Virus record (IMG/VR): IMGVR_UViG_2706794687_000017
Direction: 5' to 3' (one strand)
Source of the DNA: a virus
Taxonomy: Duplodnaviria; Heunggongvirae; Uroviricota; Caudoviricetes
Length of the DNA: 14,881 nt
How positions within the stretch are numbered: the first letter of the stretch is position 1; every line of letters begins with the position of its first letter. The notes below the pieces were generated by a model, which searched no databases, was not told where the DNA came from, and worked only from the letters and a program-made list of their open reading frames with translations. Position numbers and translations under genes: made by a program. Below are positions 2,850-14,615 of this stretch, one piece after another.

Positions 2850-5463
2850 TTGCATATTCCTTAGCCCAGCGGGGCAGTGATAACGTCTTAATAGCTGGCC
2901 ATTCATCGGTATTGAGGCAGTCAGCCAGGGTTCGCAGATTGCGGTGATATTCCAGCTGACCTGCCAGTTTTGCTTCTTCGCCCATCATGAAAATTTCAAC
3001 CGGATAACGTCCGCATTCAATAGTTGTGCTGGCAACCAGAAAAACGAAAGTTGGCTGCACTCCAAACTGTGCTTCATAACCGTCACTGTAGAATGCATCC
3101 TGAACGTGATAGCGGTAGTCGTAATAAGCGGTTTTGAATCGTTGAATATCCGCCGTAGTTTTCACGTCCATGATCCAGTGAAATTCAGGGATAATTTTGT
3201 CCGGACGGCACCGACACAAAATTGCTGTTTCAGGATCTTCCCAGTAAATTGATGATTCAGCGTGTCCGGCGCTTTCAACAAGCCATTGCCCCAGCGGCAA
3301 AGCCATAACGCTCTGATACATGAGTTCAATTTTCCGGCCTTCTTCGGCAGTGATAACCGTTTTTCCTGTGCTTGCGCATTCCCTCAGAAACGCTTTCTCT
3401 TCTTCTTTTCCGGAGTTTGTCCGGCGGTTAAATTCAGGTGCTACGATAAAGCGGTTACTGAATTCTTCCGGCTCAAGTACCCGGCAGTGGAAAGCGGTTC
3501 CTAAATCGAGCGTTTTTGTCTTTGTGGTGTCCACGGGGGCATTTTTACGCCACAAATACAGTGCCGGAGTATCAGCAATGTCATCGAGCTGAGACTTACT
3601 GACACCGGGACCCGCGTGGTAATTCTCATTCGAAATTCCGTAATAAATACCTGGCTCTATGTCTTCTACGATTACGGGATCTGCGACTTCGCCAGTTTCA
3701 TCACTGCAATCGCGATGCGGATCGCTGCCAGCATTCTCATTGTGCNNNNNNNNNNNNNNNNNNNNNNNNNNNNNNNNNNNNNNNNNNNNNNNNNNNNNNN
3801 NNNNNNNNNNNNNNNNNNNNNNNNNNNNNNNNNNNNNNNNNNNNNNNNNNNNNNNNNNNNNNNNNNNNNNNNNNNNNNNNNNNNNNNNNNNNNNNNNNNN
3901 NNNNNNNNNNNNNNNNNNNNNNNNNNNNNNNNNNNNNNNNNNNNNNNNNNNNNNNNNNNNNNNNNNNNNNNNNNNNNNNNNNNNNNNNNNNNNNNNNNNN
4001 NNNNNNNNNNNNNNNNNNNNNCCCTTTACCCATTTCGGATCGTTCGGGTCGCTAATTCCGTCAACAAATTCACCACGTGATGCAGCAAGCAATTTATCGG
4101 CATCGACAGGATTTTTTGATGGAATGTTTTTCCGGGCTTCATGGAGTTCTGCCCGCAGTTCCTGATATTTCGCATCAACAGAATTTACCTGTGACTGAGC
4201 ATCCAGCGGCTGCGTGTCCTGATGATGTTCAGTTGCGTCCGGTTCCATTGTTTCAGCCTCTCCCTGTTCAACTGCCGTTGTTCCAGATGGTTGCGGTTTT
4301 TCTTCATCATCCTGTTTTCCTTCTTCTGTTACTCGCTGCGGCATCGGGGCAGAGGAGCGACCGCAGGCAATATCCACGATTTCCGGATCAGGGTTGGCAT
4401 GATCGGTTTCAGTCAGTACTTTGTTCAGATATTCAGTGACGTGCGCGGGGATGACCTCGATCCCAATTGGTGCTTCTTTTACGGACGCAACCACGATGGC
4501 GCGGGAATAATCCAGCCCGCCAGGCATGGTGATGAATTTGTCGCGGAAAACAGAAAAGGGCGGTTTATTTTCAGCGATAATTTCCTCAATGCGTTTAGCG
4601 TGTGCCGGATGAAGGTTATAGATGTCCAGATCCATTGAACGGGCCAGTACGCCAGTGGCTACGTCCCGCGCCAGTGACGTCAGATCGTGTACGAAACCTT
4701 CGCCGCGATCGGTGAGGTTTCCGCCGCCAGCATTAGCACCGGAAGCCGTGCGAGTGATGTGTGAAACACGATTACCCTTCATCCACTCTTTTGTCAGCAG
4801 TCCTCGATCGGTGTAGTCAGCGTTCAGGTATGCTTCGAAAAAAGCAGTTATCAGTCCCAGGTTTGAATTACCAGGATTAGGGAAAACTTTGTCAGTGTCA
4901 CGAACCAGTTTGTGGAGTTCGCGAATTTCCAGCGGGTCGAGCAGGCTGGTTTTGTGGGAAACAGCCAGGGCAGTAACAGCCGGTAGTTCTTCAGCCCGAG
5001 CAATGTGTAATGCCTGGAGTCCGTCGCGTGAAACGTGCGTTACCGGTTTTTCGCTGCCGTGTTGAGCAAGCCAACGAATGGGCAGTTCCTGGCCAGAAAT
5101 TGGGAGTAGCATATTCTCCTCAATCTCAGTCATGTCTTCGCCGTTGACGTTGGTATTGCCTTGATAGTGAGCGTTGTCTGGTGCTGCTCCCGGTTTTAGT
5201 TCCCATGTCATGGAGTCTTTGCTGAGTTGATAGCGTTCACTCCAGGTAAAATCGATCTCACCTTCAGCGGGCAGGTCATTAACGACAGGAAAATTCGTGG
5301 CAACAGCTTTAAAATAGCTGCTCAGTTTTTTACCTGACTTAACGATCAGGTAGTCCAGAGTGGCACAGGTCGATTCAAAATCGTTGCTTGCCCACAGGAC
5401 GACGTCAGGTTCACCGGATGATTTTTTCGCTTTCCGTAACAGGAAGAGTGGTTTTGTGCTCAT
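2842..5463 (-). CDS. recE: RecE exonuclease VIII, 873 aa; internal bases 3746-4021 are masked
   Basis: ATG at 5463. N-terminus [41 protein letters not shown] and C-terminus ...[13 protein letters not shown] are recognised as RecE. The frame is continuous across the 276-nt mask (a multiple of 3). Confidence 0.93.
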
Positions 5464-7236: not shown

Positions 7237-7534
7237 CTNNNNNNNNNNNNNNNNNNNNNNNNNNNNNNNNNNNNNNNNNNNNNNNNNNNNNNNNNNNNNN
7301 NNNNNNNNNNNNNNNNNNNNNNNNNNNNNNNNNNNNNNNNNNNNNNNNNNNNNNNNNNNNNNNNNNNNNNNNNNNNNNNNNNNNNNNNNNNNNNNNNNNN
7401 NNNNNNNNNNNNNNNNNNNNNNNNNNNNNNNNNNNNNNNNNNNNNNNNNNNNNNNNNNNNNNNNNNNNNNNNNNNNNNNNNNNNNNNNNNNNNNNNNNNN
7501 NNNNNNNNNNNNNNNNNNNNNNNNNNNNNNNNNN

Positions 7535-7580
7535 TACCGCAACAATCCATCAAATACTGAACTACTTCGTAATGCACCAT
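7535..7580 (-). CDS. 5' end of an unidentified small prophage gene (MVHYEVVQYLMDCCG...) running into masked block 7239-7534; ydaF/ydaG neighbourhood
   Basis: ATG at 7580 (rc of cat 7578-7580) preceded by a strong SD, AAGGGGAG (rc of 7588-7595), at 7-nt spacing. The rest is masked. Confidence 0.4.
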
Positions 7581-7783: not shown

Positions 7784-8284
7784 CTATAAGTACATTTTGT
7801 GTGTAAAAAAATGAGATGGGATAAAGTGAAGCACAAACCCGGAGGGGGACGCTANNNNNNNNNNNNNNNNNNNNNNNNNNNNNNNNNNNNNNNNNNNNNN
7901 NNNNNNNNNNNNNNNNNNNNNNNNNNNNNNNNNNNNNNNNNNNNNNNNNNNNNNNNNNNNNNNNNNNNNNNNNNNNNNNNNNNNNNNNNNNNNNNNNNNN
8001 NNNNNNNNNNNNNNNNNNNNNNNNNNNNNNNNNNNNNNNNNNNNNNNNNNNNNNNNNNNNNNNNNNNNNNNNNNNNNNNNNNNNNNNNNNNNNNNNNNNN
8101 NNNNNNNNNNNNNNTCTCGGCGAGGAATTGTTTCGCCATTAAACCATTTGCTAACCGCTTTTGGTGTTAATTTCATTCGACGGGCAATTTCTGCCTGCCT
8201 TCCATGTTGTTCATAACCAGCGTTTTCACAGGCTAGCGCAAGCCTACTGGCGAACTCTTTACGCGCTTTATCTTCATGAACCAT
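7784..8284 (-). CDS. racR: RacR-like prophage repressor (XRE-family HTH); bases 7855-8114 masked, 3' end uncertain
   Basis: N-terminus MVHEDKARKEFASRLALACENAGYEQHGRQAEIARRMKLTPKAVSKWFNGETIP has a helix-turn-helix signature and is divergent from the cro-like ydaS. No SD precedes the ATG at 8284, so the transcript may be leaderless. The end coordinate assumes frame continuity across the mask. Confidence 0.6.
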   Translation of the reverse strand: MVHEDKARKEFASRLALACENAGYEQHGRQAEIARRMKLTPKAVSKWFNGETIPRRXXXXXXXXXXXXXXXXXXXXXXXXXXXXXXXXXXXXXXXXXXXXXXXXXXXXXXXXXXXXXXXXXXXXXXXXXXXXXXXXXXXXXXXXASPSGFVLHFIPSHFFTHKMYL

Positions 8285-11876: not shown

Positions 11877-12014
11877 ACGTTACTAGATCAAAGAGCATTA
11901 GTTCATATGTAAATTGACATTTTTCTGGCACAGGGGAGAGCTAGCGTGGTTGTCCGCTTTGTGCCAATAGCGGACATTGCTGGCTCATGGTATGTTAGTT
12001 TAAGGAGGCAGGTT

Positions 12015-13037
12015 ATGCCCTGTATTTCGCTGTGGTATAATAGTTGCGCAATTGATACAAGGGAGCGTTACATCGTGAAAATTGTTTTCGAGGTTAATGG
12101 AAAGAAAGTTCCACTAAAATCTTTAAAATACATAAGCAAAAAAGATCAACTCGAAGTAATGAAAAACTGGTTCTTTGAAAACTTTGAAGATCCGGCAAAT
12201 GCTTGTCCGTATGAAAGTAGAGAAGGTGGCTATGCTTACATATATGGCGGGCCGTATGATGCGAGCGAAGAACTACAATCCATCTTCGGTCAATATGTTA
12301 AATCTGAGTATATTGAGGAATTAGTAGATGAATTACAAACACAATGTTTTGACTGGTCTGGAAACTCAAATAATATAGATGATTGGTACGATGATGATAT
12401 CTACGACGCTGTAACGTCTTCCGGTAATCCGTATTTAAAATTCATTGATAATATCGATAAAATAAAAAAACTTGCAAAAGATAAAACTGAACAACAGCAA
12501 AAAAACCACTTGCTTAGTTTGCTCTACACGAATGTTATTACAGCTTTGGAAACGCTTTATGTTGAGCTATTCATTAATTCTATAGAGAAAGATGATGTCT
12601 ACATAGCCAATTGTATAGAAAAAGGTAAGACTGAATTTAAAGTAAGCAAAGATATTGCTGCGTTGCCTTTCAAGGGTGAACCCATCGAGAAAATTAGGGG
12701 AGAGCTAATCAGGTCAATCAAGGAACACTTGATCAGTGCAAGCTGGCATAGCACTAAAAAGGTAATCGACCGCTATGAAGCTACATTCGATATAAAAGTA
12801 CAAAAAGACTGTCCGATAGAAGCTATTGAATTGGCAACCCTCAATCGAAATCACTTAGTGCATCGTGGTGGAAAGGATAAAGAAGGGAACCTCGTAGTGA
12901 TTACAGACCAGGATCTTGAAACGCTGATTGAAAATGCATCGAACCTGGCAATTATGCTCTACAACAGTTTAAATGTAGCAACGAATAAAACCACCATTTT
13001 GCAACCAGATGACAAACCGTTCATTCATGAATTTTAA
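12015..13037 (+). CDS. Cargo gene A: uncharacterised AT-rich protein (about 340 aa; 320 aa if started at GTG 12075) with a C-terminal R-x4-H HEPN-like motif
   Basis: Long ORF. ATG at 12015 is preceded by AAGGAGG (12002-12008) at 6-nt spacing. Codon usage is strongly AT-biased, unlike the flanking prophage genes. Motif NRNHLVHRGG is encoded at about 12843-12872. No family recognised. Confidence 0.8.
   Translation: MPCISLWYNSCAIDTRERYIVKIVFEVNGKKVPLKSLKYISKKDQLEVMKNWFFENFEDPANACPYESREGGYAYIYGGPYDASEELQSIFGQYVKSEYIEELVDELQTQCFDWSGNSNNIDDWYDDDIYDAVTSSGNPYLKFIDNIDKIKKLAKDKTEQQQKNHLLSLLYTNVITALETLYVELFINSIEKDDVYIANCIEKGKTEFKVSKDIAALPFKGEPIEKIRGELIRSIKEHLISASWHSTKKVIDRYEATFDIKVQKDCPIEAIELATLNRNHLVHRGGKDKEGNLVVITDQDLETLIENASNLAIMLYNSLNVATNKTTILQPDDKPFIHEF
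12033..12041 (+). promoter_or_regulatory. Extended -10 element TGgTATAAT (possible promoter for the cargo operon if translation starts at GTG 12075)
   Basis: TG at 12033-12034 and TATAAT at 12036-12041, followed by GGGAG (12061-12065) and an in-frame GTG at 12075. The -35 region is weak (TTATGC). Conflicts with the ATG 12015 start, which has a textbook SD. Confidence 0.3.
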
Positions 13038-13052
13038 TAGCGCAGGTCATAC

Positions 13053-14054
13053 ATGGATATTCGCACACGAAAGACAAAATTTTTAGAGTCGTTAGATTCA
13101 ACTGAAGTGATACGCAAAGCAGTAAGTCTCGCTATAGATTGCATTATTGATAATCATAATAGTAATGAAGATACCCCCTTAGTTATTACCAGCTATGATG
13201 ATCTCTGTAGAATCCAGGTGCTAAATTATGTACAGGAGTTTTGCGAAGCTGCATTCCCTGATATGGATGAATATTACTTTAGTCCTAACATACTTCGCAT
13301 CAACGGCAAGACTAGTGAAGAAGCTTGTATTAACTTAATTAAACTCTTAAGAAGTACAAAAGGCATGCTATTCTGGTCCGATGCCCCATCGTGGTTCGCT
13401 AGCCTCCCCGACGGATTATTCCATGTTGTTAACATTGATCAAAAAATCGTTACTCGCGGCCTTAATAAGAAAAACTCTAAGCCGACAATAATCAATAAAG
13501 ATTACAGTGTAGATACACTACTATCAGAGCTATTTTTGAATGGCGCACACATGGAGCAACCCAACGTACACAACGTTTCTGAGGGAAACATGAAGTTCTA
13601 TGATGAATGCCATGCTGGATTAATCAGACCAATACCCGCTCCAATAGGCGCGTCATACGATGAAGAGATCACAATTAATTCTCCAGATTGGCAAAAGCTC
13701 GCGTGTGTAGCTTTACGCCGCTATCAGTCGAAGGAATGTCATGACGGAATGCAATGGGATACAACCGATCATGGTTGGACTGATGTAATCGCGTATCCAT
13801 TCGTCGAAGAAATACAATCAATGGATAATAGTGGTTATCGACAATGTTTAGTTGGGCTGGTCACAATAAACAATTCAAATGCAAATTCTCCGTACCTATC
13901 TACCGTTTGGATACATCCATTTTATCGCAGGAGAGGGTTATTAAGTAAGTTATGGCCAAAATTACAAGAGTTATATGGAAGTAACTTCGAAATTGAGCGA
14001 CCTAATGAAAATATGAAAGCATTTCTGAAAAGTGCGAAACACGCAGATTACTAA
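13053..14054 (+). CDS. Cargo gene B: uncharacterised AT-rich protein, 333 aa, with a C-terminal GNAT-like (acetyltransferase motif A-like) segment
   Basis: ATG at 13053, 15 bp after the gene A stop (operon arrangement), TAA at 14052-14054. C-terminal CLVGLVTINN...VWIHPFYRRRGLLSKLWPKLQELYG resembles GNAT beta4/motif A (compare the VHPEYRGRGIG pattern). The N-terminal 190 aa or so are unrecognised. Confidence 0.85.
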   Translation: MDIRTRKTKFLESLDSTEVIRKAVSLAIDCIIDNHNSNEDTPLVITSYDDLCRIQVLNYVQEFCEAAFPDMDEYYFSPNILRINGKTSEEACINLIKLLRSTKGMLFWSDAPSWFASLPDGLFHVVNIDQKIVTRGLNKKNSKPTIINKDYSVDTLLSELFLNGAHMEQPNVHNVSEGNMKFYDECHAGLIRPIPAPIGASYDEEITINSPDWQKLACVALRRYQSKECHDGMQWDTTDHGWTDVIAYPFVEEIQSMDNSGYRQCLVGLVTINNSNANSPYLSTVWIHPFYRRRGLLSKLWPKLQELYGSNFEIERPNENMKAFLKSAKHADY

Positions 14055-14615
14055 TTTATGAATCAGTCTGTGGAGTTAGGGTTGGTGTGAACAAGTAGGG
14101 TAAGAGCCTCAACGTGATGCTATGCCGACCTGCTCCCTGAGAATTCACACAGAAGGCTGCTAGCAATGTCTGCAGATCGCTCAAAGCGGACTAAAATGTT
14201 GGCTTGTTTCTGACTTAGAGCATTTAAGGAAGTGCTGGTGGTGACTGGTTGTTGTGTTCCATTTCTACAGAATAAAATCACAGAAACTATACCCAATAGT
14301 TGTATTGAATCACTGACGAGACAGCCTCATATTTATCAGGACTGGTGTGCGTCTAATACAGGGGGTTGTCGTGCTGGTTCTCAAATGTGCGCTGGCTATT
14401 GCGGCTGTAATGGCAATTTATTGTCTTGCTGTTGTTCTTATGGAGCGGCTTTCTGATTGATTACATACTGGCTAGAAAAAAGGTGTTACCTTGGTTTATC
14501 TTTGTCCGGCAAGGTGCGCTCATTAATCTTAAGTAAATTTATTGCTCAAGTATTCAGATTACTTCTTATGGTTGAAGTCTCCTGTCAATGTAGAACCAAT
14601 ATATTTACAAAAATG

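What the first reader, a model, noticed from the sequence alone, without database searches (positions are those of the whole stretch)
12843..12872. R-x4-H (HEPN-like) motif in the predicted helical C-terminal region of cargo protein A
The segment NRNHLVHRGG contains R-N-x-x-x-H, the spacing and the polar residue after Arg typical of HEPN RNase active-site motifs (R-x4-6-H). HEPN domains are common in abortive-infection and toxin proteins. A six-residue motif can arise by chance, so this is a lead, not an assignment.
Basis: partly seen in the sequence, partly recalled or inferred. Interest (0 to 1): 0.6.

Follow-up and report, generated by a model that had tools for sequence, protein, structure and literature searches.

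The report
Prophage HEPN RNase defence-like gene
The short R-x4-H motif is the conserved active-site signature of a genuine HEPN ribonuclease domain in a two-domain prophage cargo protein whose N-terminal domain also heads a recently described anti-phage protein (aRES), so it is most likely an untested, stand-alone, RNA-cutting phage-defence gene of an already catalogued type.

The parts
12075..13037 (+). Cargo A coding sequence (320 aa plus stop): N-terminal HEPN/RES-NTD1 domain plus C-terminal HEPN domain
   Evidence: ORF. Start GTG 12075 is conserved in homologues with an SD-like element. PGAP aa, WP_014639476.1. PHROG 17908, E 6e-243.
12075..12374 (+). N-terminal domain (about residues 1-100), HEPN/RES-NTD1 (PF18870). 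Invariant W32 F33 .. E38 D39 P40 .. P45 Y46 .. E50 G51 G52 Y53 .. G58 G59 P60 .. F71 .. W94
12420..13004 (+). HEPN domain (about residues 116-310). Core helices are 119-134, 140-170, 248-263 and 278-308, with a helical insert at 174-238 between core helices 2 and 3
12846..12866 (+). R258-N-H-L-V-H263-R264: the Rx4H catalytic-type motif (the finding itself, 12843-12872, spans N257-G266)
   Evidence: for coordinates. Invariant.
12549..12551 (+). Invariant Glu159 ('ALET') in the long core helix 140-170. Candidate for the conserved acidic residue of HEPN core helix 2
   Evidence: Invariant column. Helix assignment. The role is inferred from PMC3710099; 3D proximity to the motif was not measured.
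12744..12749 (+). Invariant Trp224-His225 in the insert between core helices 2 and 3. Role unknown
   Evidence: Invariant columns. A WH pair is present in 119/135 independent representatives.
13032..13034 (+). C-terminal Phe320, the last residue, unusually conserved as the terminal residue across the family
   Evidence: 87/120 and 63/135 homologues end in F against a 4.5% background.
12033..12065 (+). Putative own expression signals inside the cassette: extended -10-like TGGTATAAT (12033-12041) and Shine-Dalgarno AAGGGAG (12059-12065)
   Evidence: Read from the sequence. The -10-like element is kept as TGGTACAAT and TGATACAAT in the Serratia and Aeromonas cassettes. The consensus scan did not flag it and it is untested.
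13053..14054 (+). Cargo B (333 aa): unknown N-terminal region plus a GNAT-like C-terminal domain. It travels with A in one lineage only
   Evidence: PF00583 at residues 264-311, E 9e-4; 13/34 homologues hit GNAT. Distribution is independent of A.
11952..11975 (.). Left border site of the cargo slot: palindrome GTCCGC-N12-GCGGAC
   Evidence: The plasmid and Serratia copies of the cassette start exactly here.
14168..14191 (.). Right border site of the cargo slot: GTCTGC-N12-GCGGAC
   Evidence: The plasmid copy ends exactly here. Backbone homology with phages Tritos and Evi resumes at 14165-14177.

Best explanation
Cargo A (12075-13037) is a stand-alone, two-domain conflict protein. Residues 116-310 form a HEPN-fold, metal-independent endoribonuclease domain of the RiboL-PSP-HEPN type. 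Its active site is built from R258 and H263 of the RNHLVHR motif, and probably E159. Residues 1-100 form the HEPN/RES-NTD1 domain, a module found fused to alternative toxic effectors (HEPN here, a RES NADase in aRES, and PIN). The most likely mode of action is abortive-infection-type defence. The protein would be made from its own promoter in the lysogen and held inactive. An infection-associated cue, acting through the N-terminal domain or oligomeric state, would switch on the RNase. Cleavage of cellular RNA (tRNA or mRNA) would then stop translation and block the incoming phage. Shown here: the motif, its invariance, the HEPN fold and family, the shared N-terminal domain, the lack of a conserved partner gene, and the mobile-element or hotspot location. 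Inferred: RNase activity, the RNA target, the trigger, the role of the N-terminal domain, and the defence phenotype.
Confidence: 0.62

Rival explanations
1. A and B form a two-gene toxin-antitoxin or addiction module. Either the GNAT-like B neutralises the HEPN toxin A (as MntA neutralises HepT by modification), or A restrains a GNAT toxin. The main role would be stabilising the prophage or plasmid.
For: There is a 15-nt gap between A's stop and B's start. The 2,240-bp A+B unit is 99.9% identical on an IncF plasmid next to relB, and 97% identical in Serratia. It is the commonest filling of the slot in viral contigs (14/30). The A+B pair is also found in Aeromonas. HEPN toxins regulated by covalent modification are known (HepT/MntA; cited).
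Against: A occurs without B in Dickeya, Yersinia, Aeromonas taiwanensis and all distant phyla. B occurs without an intact A in Marinomonas and Shewanella. In Citrobacter B is preceded only by a remnant of A codons 257-320. Neither gene is therefore lethal without the other. There is no MNT-type nucleotidyltransferase. aRES, which has the same N-terminal domain, works alone.
Confidence: 0.12
2. A is a HEPN RNase, but its natural role is not defence against other phages. It could serve the prophage or mobile element itself through RNA processing, host shut-off during induction, or competition between mobile elements.
For: The gene sits in the early-right region of a lambdoid prophage, downstream of replication genes, where read-through from the early operon is possible. 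No intrinsic terminator-like site was found around it. HEPN domains also act in RNA processing (PMC3710099).
Against: The same gene family occurs on conjugative plasmids, integrative elements and chromosomal islands in many phyla, outside any phage. It carries its own promoter-like and SD signals inside the portable cassette. The slot's alternative cargos match candidate defence systems.
Confidence: 0.17
3. The HEPN-like domain is catalytically inert (a binding or scaffold domain, as in some nucleotidyltransferase-associated HEPNs), or the motif is a chance match with no catalytic meaning.
For: 29% of shuffled sequences contain an Rx4-6H. Some HEPN families have lost activity (PMC3710099). The window protein itself is below the Pfam thresholds. 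Foldseek found no significant match.
Against: R and H are invariant in every full-length family member examined. The conserved polar residue follows R, and the motif sits where active HEPNs have it. Inactive HEPN lineages characteristically lose these residues.
Confidence: 0.05

Closest known systems
HEPN/RES-NTD1 + HEPN architecture (Anantharaman et al. 2013, Biol Direct 8:15; Pfam PF18870 + PF18735 RiboL-PSP-HEPN)
   Same: It has the same two domains in the same order. The about 100-aa N-terminal domain was defined by its fusion to HEPN, RES and other effectors (prototype KPK_1764 of Klebsiella). The Rx4-6H motif is conserved in the RiboL-PSP-HEPN family. PGAP already names some close homologues 'HEPN-associated N-terminal domain-containing protein'.
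   Different: The description is purely computational; no member has been tested. The 2013 paper assigns the NTD1-fused HEPNs to the MAE_28990/MAE_18760 group, whereas the Pfam profile that matches this family is RiboL-PSP. The window protein is annotated 'hypothetical protein' in RefSeq.
aRES (antiphage RES-domain protein; bioRxiv 10.64898/2026.01.28.702374)
   Same: Both have the same N-terminal domain: aRES is defined as PF18870 plus a RES domain. Both are stand-alone genes with no operon partner, are found in E. coli and relatives on mobile or defence loci, and have a toxic C-terminal enzymatic effector.
   Different: The effector here is a HEPN RNase domain rather than a RES NAD+ phosphorylase, so the predicted target is RNA rather than NAD+. 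No RES domain was detected. The preprint's text does not mention HEPN versions (0 occurrences).
HepS (HEPN Solo defence element of Salmonella prophage Gifsy-1; Nature 2026, PMC13043305)
   Same: Both are prophage-encoded, self-sufficient HEPN proteins located after the replication genes of a lambdoid prophage. HepS is constitutively expressed, inactive until triggered, and acts as an anticodon nuclease causing abortive infection. This is the functional template for the mechanism proposed here.
   Different: HepS is under 250 aa with its motif at R100-H105 and no extra domain. Cargo A is 320 aa with NTD1 and its motif at R258-H263. Sequence relatedness could not be tested because HepS is not in the LT2 Gifsy-1 record. 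The HepS trigger, the J tail-tip protein, cannot be assumed here.
HepT/MntA (HEPN-MNT, type VII toxin-antitoxin)
   Different: They are minimal HEPNs of about 130 aa neutralised by an adjacent MNT nucleotidyltransferase. Cargo A has no MNT neighbour, has a large insert between core helices 2 and 3, and has an extra N-terminal domain.
Other single-protein HEPN defences: DARNA/PD-T7-3, ApeA, PD-T4-2, PD-T4-5, AbiD/AbiF (Abi_2)
   Same: All are HEPN RNase effectors fused to a non-catalytic sensing domain, with abortive-infection logic. The 2013 survey calls RiboL-PSP-HEPN distantly related to AbiD/AbiF.
   Different: There is no HMM match to any of these in PADLOC or to Abi_2 in Pfam. In DARNA the HEPN is N-terminal and the sensor C-terminal.

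Membership tests
HEPN superfamily | Four-helix up-and-down bundle, often with an insert between core helices 2 and 3 | tested here: met
HEPN superfamily | Conserved Rx4-6H motif at the end of core helix 3, with a polar residue (N/D/H) after R | tested here: met
   R258-N-H-L-V-H263 lies at the end of helix 248-263. It is invariant. The residue after R is N or H in all members. Criterion from PMC3710099.
HEPN superfamily | Metal-independent endoribonuclease activity; composite active site at a HEPN dimer interface | not testable with these tools
   No biochemical or multimer modelling tool was available.
Pfam PF18735 HEPN_RiboL-PSP | Score at or above the gathering threshold (28.4 bits) to the family profile | tested here: inconclusive
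   The window protein has no hit at E<=1. Homologues do: P0103 39.1, P0101 36.1, P0112 29.0 and P0060 28.5 bits. 30/53 members hit at E<0.01, best 7e-11. Membership therefore holds for the family through its more typical members, not for this sequence on its own.
Pfam PF18870 HEPN_RES_NTD1 | Score at or above the gathering threshold (27.4 bits) to the family profile | tested here: inconclusive
   The window protein scores 22.2 bits, E 1.9e-4, below the cut-off. 50/53 homologues hit at E<0.01. P0112 (29.6), P0116 (28.7) and an alphaproteobacterial NTD protein (29.4) pass the cut-off. All conserved NTD motifs are present in the window protein.
aRES defence system | PF18870 N-terminal domain together with a RES domain (the preprint's detection rule) | tested here: not met
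   No RES domain was found in the window protein or in any of 53 homologues; the C-terminal domain is HEPN. It shares the N-terminal domain only, so it is not an aRES member.
aRES defence system | Stand-alone gene, not in an operon with a partner | tested here: met
   No conserved neighbour was found in about 57 full-length loci. B is lineage-specific.
HEPN-MNT (HepT/MntA) toxin-antitoxin | Adjacent minimal nucleotidyltransferase (MNT) antitoxin gene | tested here: not met
   No conserved neighbour was found. B has a GNAT-like domain, not an MNT domain.
HepS | Solo HEPN protein under 250 aa with no additional domain; motif at about residue 100 | tested here: not met
   Cargo A is 320 aa with an extra N-terminal domain and its motif at 258-263. 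Criteria are from PMC13043305. Sequence similarity was not tested because HepS is absent from the available Gifsy-1 record.
Known or candidate defence systems in PADLOC-DB 2.0 (including PD-T7-3/DARNA, PD-T4-2, PD-T4-5, ApeA, Abi families) | Significant match to a system HMM | tested here: not met
   The best PADLOC hits have E 0.011-0.031 to unrelated models.

The most novel reading that the evidence does not exclude
HEPN/RES-NTD1 may be a portable infection-sensing or auto-inhibitory module that can drive interchangeable toxic effectors: a RES NADase in aRES, the HEPN RNase here, PIN, and a GHNNPP-motif module with a hydrophobic tail. On that reading cargo A would be the founding, experimentally untested member of a widespread single-gene RNA-targeting defence family, with at least 842 clusters at 50% identity. 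A conserved C-terminal Phe could take part in regulation. The two 24-bp palindromes that bracket the cassette could be the exchange sites of a previously undescribed cargo-swapping slot in lambdoid prophages.
Probability: 0.4. Interest if true: 0.6.

Novelty: new member of a known kind. Interest (0 to 1): 0.45.

Why it matters
About 4% of complete E. coli genomes (205 of 5,426) carry this exact cassette annotated only as two hypothetical proteins. The analysis gives the first gene a specific, testable function, with two point mutants (R258A, H263A) as immediate controls. If it defends against phage, it would show that the N-terminal domain of aRES works with a completely different effector chemistry, RNA cleavage instead of NAD+ depletion. 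That would make the domain, whose fold has no solved relative, the key to how this whole group of single-gene systems senses infection. Phage counter-measures described for aRES that rebuild NAD+ or plug the RES active site would not be expected to work against an RNase version. The palindrome-bounded slot also offers a simple way to harvest further candidate defence genes from lambdoid prophages.

Tried and rejected
1. Direct Pfam, NCBIfam, PADLOC and PDB-sequence searches with the window protein alone gave nothing for the C-terminal domain. A profile search against PDB sequences gave only noise. The HEPN link needed homologues and structure.

2. Foldseek against all PDB chains gave no significant hit (best E 0.36; a HEPN, 1wwp, only at rank 45). 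The AFDB50 library was unavailable.

3. A search with an NTD-only alignment, meant to list fusion partners such as RES, returned only short fragments of similar length and cost one capped search. RES fusions were therefore not seen directly; the link to RES rests on the Pfam family definition, PMC3710099 and the aRES preprint's detection rule.

4. A direct comparison with HepS failed because the LT2 Gifsy-1 record has no ORF with R100/H105.

5. I looked for an RNA antitoxin or repeat array, as in AbiF-type or type III systems. There was no Rfam match above noise and no tandem or direct repeat family of note. Upstream DNA is not conserved beyond about 20 nt in 75%-identity homologues.

6. B as an obligatory partner was rejected on distribution.

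7. The 340-aa (ATG 12015) and 363-aa (GTG 11946) starts were rejected in favour of GTG 12075, despite a good AAGGAGG before 12015, because only 12075 is conserved.

9. No intrinsic terminator-like site was found around the cassette.

Full report
**Observation.** The + strand at 12843-12872 encodes N-R-N-H-L-V-H-R-G-G, as stated. It lies in the ORF listed as 11946-13037.
- The real start is most likely GTG 12075, giving 320 aa. That codon is kept as GTG or ATG, with an AAGGAG-type Shine-Dalgarno about 9 nt upstream, in the Serratia, Aeromonas, Yersinia, Dickeya and Pantoea homologues.
- The DNA further upstream, including the ATG at 12015 with its AAGGAGG, is not conserved.
- PGAP also calls a 320-aa protein, WP_014639476.1, 'hypothetical protein'.
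- In this numbering the motif is R258-N-H-L-V-H263-R264.

**Is it more than chance?** Not on its own. With 6 Arg and 6 His, 29% of shuffles of the protein contain some R-x4-6-H and 1.8% contain R-[NDH]-x3-H. The protein has a second, non-conserved RxxxxH at R213. The evidence comes from conservation.
- In an alignment of 53 homologues down to 26% identity, R258, H263 and R264 are invariant. The only other invariant columns are nine positions: six in the N-terminal domain, plus E159, W224 and H225.
- Of the 111 database hits of at least 270 aa, 108 carry R-x4-H-R. The three exceptions share only the N-terminal domain and carry other effectors.
- An exhaustive profile search found 3,607 cluster representatives at 50% identity (842 at E<=1e-30). 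All 135 full-length proteins among the best 150 keep both R and H, and the residue after R is H or N.

**What the protein is.** It has two domains.
- *C-terminal half.* This matches Pfam PF18735 (RiboL-PSP-HEPN) in 30 of 53 homologues (best E 7e-11), several above the gathering score. The window protein itself does not reach this profile.
- *Model.* An AlphaFold2 model built on the alignment is confident (mean pLDDT 88.6, pTM 0.66). It has helices 119-134 and 140-170, a helical insert at 174-238, helix 248-263, a small hairpin, and a long helix at 278-308.
- *Position of the motif.* The 2013 survey of the superfamily states that Rx4-6H lies at the end of core helix 3 and the start of the loop to helix 4. 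It adds that the residue after R is typically N, D or H, that inserts between helices 2 and 3 are frequent, and that a conserved acidic residue sits in helix 2 (PMC3710099). The model agrees on each point. E159 in helix 140-170 is the candidate acidic residue, but its 3D proximity to the motif was not measured.

**Surroundings.** The window is the early region of a Rac-type lambdoid prophage integrated at ttcA: intR, xisR, ralR, recT, recE, kilR, sieB, repressor, ydaT/U/V, DUF1627 and DUF977.
- Cargo A and the next gene B (13053-14054, 15-nt gap) form a low-GC block (0.39 against about 0.5).
- The pair is present in 205 of 5,426 complete E. coli genomes.
- B has a weak GNAT-like C-terminal domain: 19.9 bits for the window protein, and 13 of 34 homologues hit PF00583.

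**Is B a partner?** The distribution says it is not an obligatory one.
- Among 57 full-length A loci from Gammaproteobacteria, Acidobacteriota, Chloroflexota, Cyanobacteria and others, no neighbouring protein family recurs beyond same-species duplicates.
- B is found only next to A copies of 98% identity or more in that set, and next to an 86%-identical A in Aeromonas caviae.
- A stands alone in Dickeya (beside a ParE/HTH pair and an integrase), on a conjugative element, and beside integrases elsewhere.
- B stands alone in Marinomonas and Shewanella. In Citrobacter it is preceded only by a remnant of A codons 257-320.
- Neither gene therefore needs the other to be tolerated.

**How it most likely works.** The closest experimentally studied relative by domain content is aRES (bioRxiv 10.64898/2026.01.28.702374).
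- The authors detect aRES as PF18870 plus a RES domain and describe it as a stand-alone gene in defence islands.
- They show that three versions, including one from E. coli, protect against diverse phages with growth arrest, through NAD+ depletion that depends on RES active-site residues.
- Cargo A has the same N-terminal domain and the same stand-alone habit, but a HEPN domain in place of RES.
- The N-terminal domain is also fused to a PIN_8 domain (P0116). In many Alphaproteobacteria it is fused to a third module with a GIGHNNPP motif and a hydrophobic tail. One shared module with swappable toxic effectors is the usual signature of a sensor or regulator coupled to an effector.
- HepS (Nature 2026, PMC13043305) shows that a prophage-encoded, self-sufficient HEPN protein can be made constitutively in an inactive oligomer. 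[quoted passage not shown] DARNA and ApeA are further single-protein HEPN defences that cleave tRNA.
- By analogy, I propose that cargo A is an abortive-infection-type RNase held in check until infection, with R258 and H263 as the catalytic pair.
- The fold, motif, family, architecture and context are shown. The RNase activity, the substrate, the trigger, the role of NTD1 and the phenotype are inferred.

**Independent support from location.** The A+B cassette is bracketed by two 24-bp palindromic sites.
- The left site is GTCCGCTTTGTGCCAATAGCGGAC (11952-11975) and the right site is GTCTGCAGATCGCTCAAAGCGGAC (14168-14191). They lie within a 46-nt imperfect inverted repeat.
- Phages Tritos and Evi share the backbone up to 11979 and from 14165-14177 onward, but hold different cargo between the same two sites.
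- On an IncF plasmid the A+B cassette begins at the first base of the left site and ends at the last base of the right site. In Serratia grimesii it begins at the first base of the left site, and homology to the window extends to 14191.
- Among 44 viral contigs with the left site, 30 have both sites. The slot comes in six sizes: 1,228; 1,442; 2,104; 2,240 (the A+B cassette, 14 contigs); 3,440; and 4,063 bp.
- The 2,104-bp cargo is a 595-aa DUF7380 + DUF4209 protein. DUF4209 overlaps a HEPN family in the 2013 survey. The protein matches PADLOC candidate system PDC-S39 at E 3e-102.
- Tritos' cargo is an FRG-domain protein matching PDC-S15 at E 1e-98.
- Evi's cargo is an HTH-cupin regulator plus a GNAT.
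- The 1,228-bp cargo is a 310-aa protein with no Pfam match but a C-terminal YRSKAVHGG.
- The slot is thus a hotspot for defence-type morons, two of which besides A carry RxxxxH motifs.

**Comparison with what is known, and novelty.** The architecture HEPN/RES-NTD1 + HEPN was described computationally in 2013 (prototype KPK_1764). Both domains are Pfam families. PGAP already labels some homologues 'HEPN-associated N-terminal domain-containing protein'.
- The protein is not an aRES (no RES domain), not a HepT/MntA module (no MNT), and not HepS-like in architecture.
- It matches no PADLOC model, including PD-T7-3/DARNA, PD-T4-2, PD-T4-5 and ApeA.
- No paper in the searched library reports an experiment on this family.
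- I therefore classify it as a new member of a known kind. The HEPN assignment is correct but not new in principle. The function as a defence gene, and the idea that it is the RNase counterpart of aRES, are untested.

**Verdict.** Observation confirmed; interpretation supported. Confidence that the motif marks a genuine HEPN active site is about 0.9. Confidence in the full stand-alone abortive-defence mechanism is about 0.6. Interest is moderate (0.45). A HEPN moron in a prophage would not surprise a specialist. The aRES link, the size of the untested family and the palindrome-bounded cargo slot make it a good experimental target.

Noticed in passing
window 11952-11975 and 14168-14191 (inverted repeat 11939-11984 / 14159-14204); L100 3052 and 4853; L101 3052 and 4470; L091 5839-8078; L010 5878: Two 24-bp palindromic sites (GTCYGC-N12-GCGGAC) bracket the A+B cassette. 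The same two sites bracket different cargo in phages Tritos and Evi and in 30 viral contigs, with six slot sizes. On an IncF plasmid the cassette starts and ends exactly at the outer bases of these sites, and in Serratia it starts exactly at the left site. This suggests a defined cargo-exchange slot, or a hairpin-ended non-autonomous element, in lambdoid prophages.
   Followed up: partly
slot cargo in viral contigs L104 (2,104-bp class), L117 (1,228-bp class), L137 (1,442-bp class); L100:3221-4552 (-): Alternative cargos of the same slot were identified. One is a 595-aa DUF7380 + DUF4209 (HEPN-type, 'LRNQLAHGY') protein matching PADLOC PDC-S39. Another is a 443-aa FRG-domain protein matching PDC-S15. 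A third is an HTH_3-cupin regulator plus a GNAT. The fourth is a 310-aa protein with no family match but a C-terminal 'YRSKAVHGG' R-x4-H motif.
   Followed up: partly
window 13032-13034 (Phe320, last codon of cargo A): The very last residue is Phe in 87/120 homologues and 63/135 independent representatives (background F 4.5%). It is also Phe in 12/19 alphaproteobacterial proteins that share only the N-terminal domain. The terminal Phe therefore tracks NTD1 rather than the effector. It could be a docking, auto-inhibition or degron signal. The tail is low-confidence in the model.
   Followed up: partly
L061-L088 (e.g. L061:5902-6744, L067:5941-6798): About 19 alphaproteobacterial proteins carry HEPN/RES-NTD1 fused to an uncharacterised C-terminal module. 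This module has a conserved G-I-G-H-N-N-P-P motif and an amphipathic or hydrophobic tail ending in ..LPF. The two examples scanned against Pfam matched no family for this part. This may be a third effector type for the domain. L077/P0116 is a PIN_8 + NTD1 fusion with the NTD at the C-terminus.
   Followed up: partly
window 13053-14054 (cargo B): B is a 333-aa protein with a GNAT-like C-terminal domain (HPFYRRRG region) and a well-conserved N-terminal 250 residues with many invariant Cys, Trp and Arg and no family match. It is confined to Gammaproteobacteria and occurs with or without A. In Citrobacter (L092/L093) it is preceded by a remnant of A codons 257-320.
   Followed up: partly
L094/L095 (Aeromonas caviae) 3023-4993 and neighbours: The A-like + B pair sits on an element encoding a relaxase, close to a SIR2-domain gene and a cREC_REC gene. 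This is a defence-island-like neighbourhood.
   Followed up: no
L009 (JAIHTM010000277.1, labelled Collinsella sp. MAG): A 3.3-kb contig of an actinobacterial MAG carries the E. coli A and B proteins at 100% amino-acid identity (97% DNA identity). This is most likely a binning or contamination artefact.
   Followed up: no
window ~1440-1740, ~3745-4020, ~7240-7535, ~7855-8115: Four stretches of the window are masked (N runs). They interrupt recE, the repressor gene and other ORFs in translation. The matching JP538 chromosome (L001) is intact there.
   Followed up: no
window 12002-12026: A strong AAGGAGG lies 6 nt before the ATG at 12015, in frame with cargo A. This could give a 340-aa isoform on read-through transcripts; many database entries use this start. 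The extension is not conserved in homologues.
   Followed up: yes
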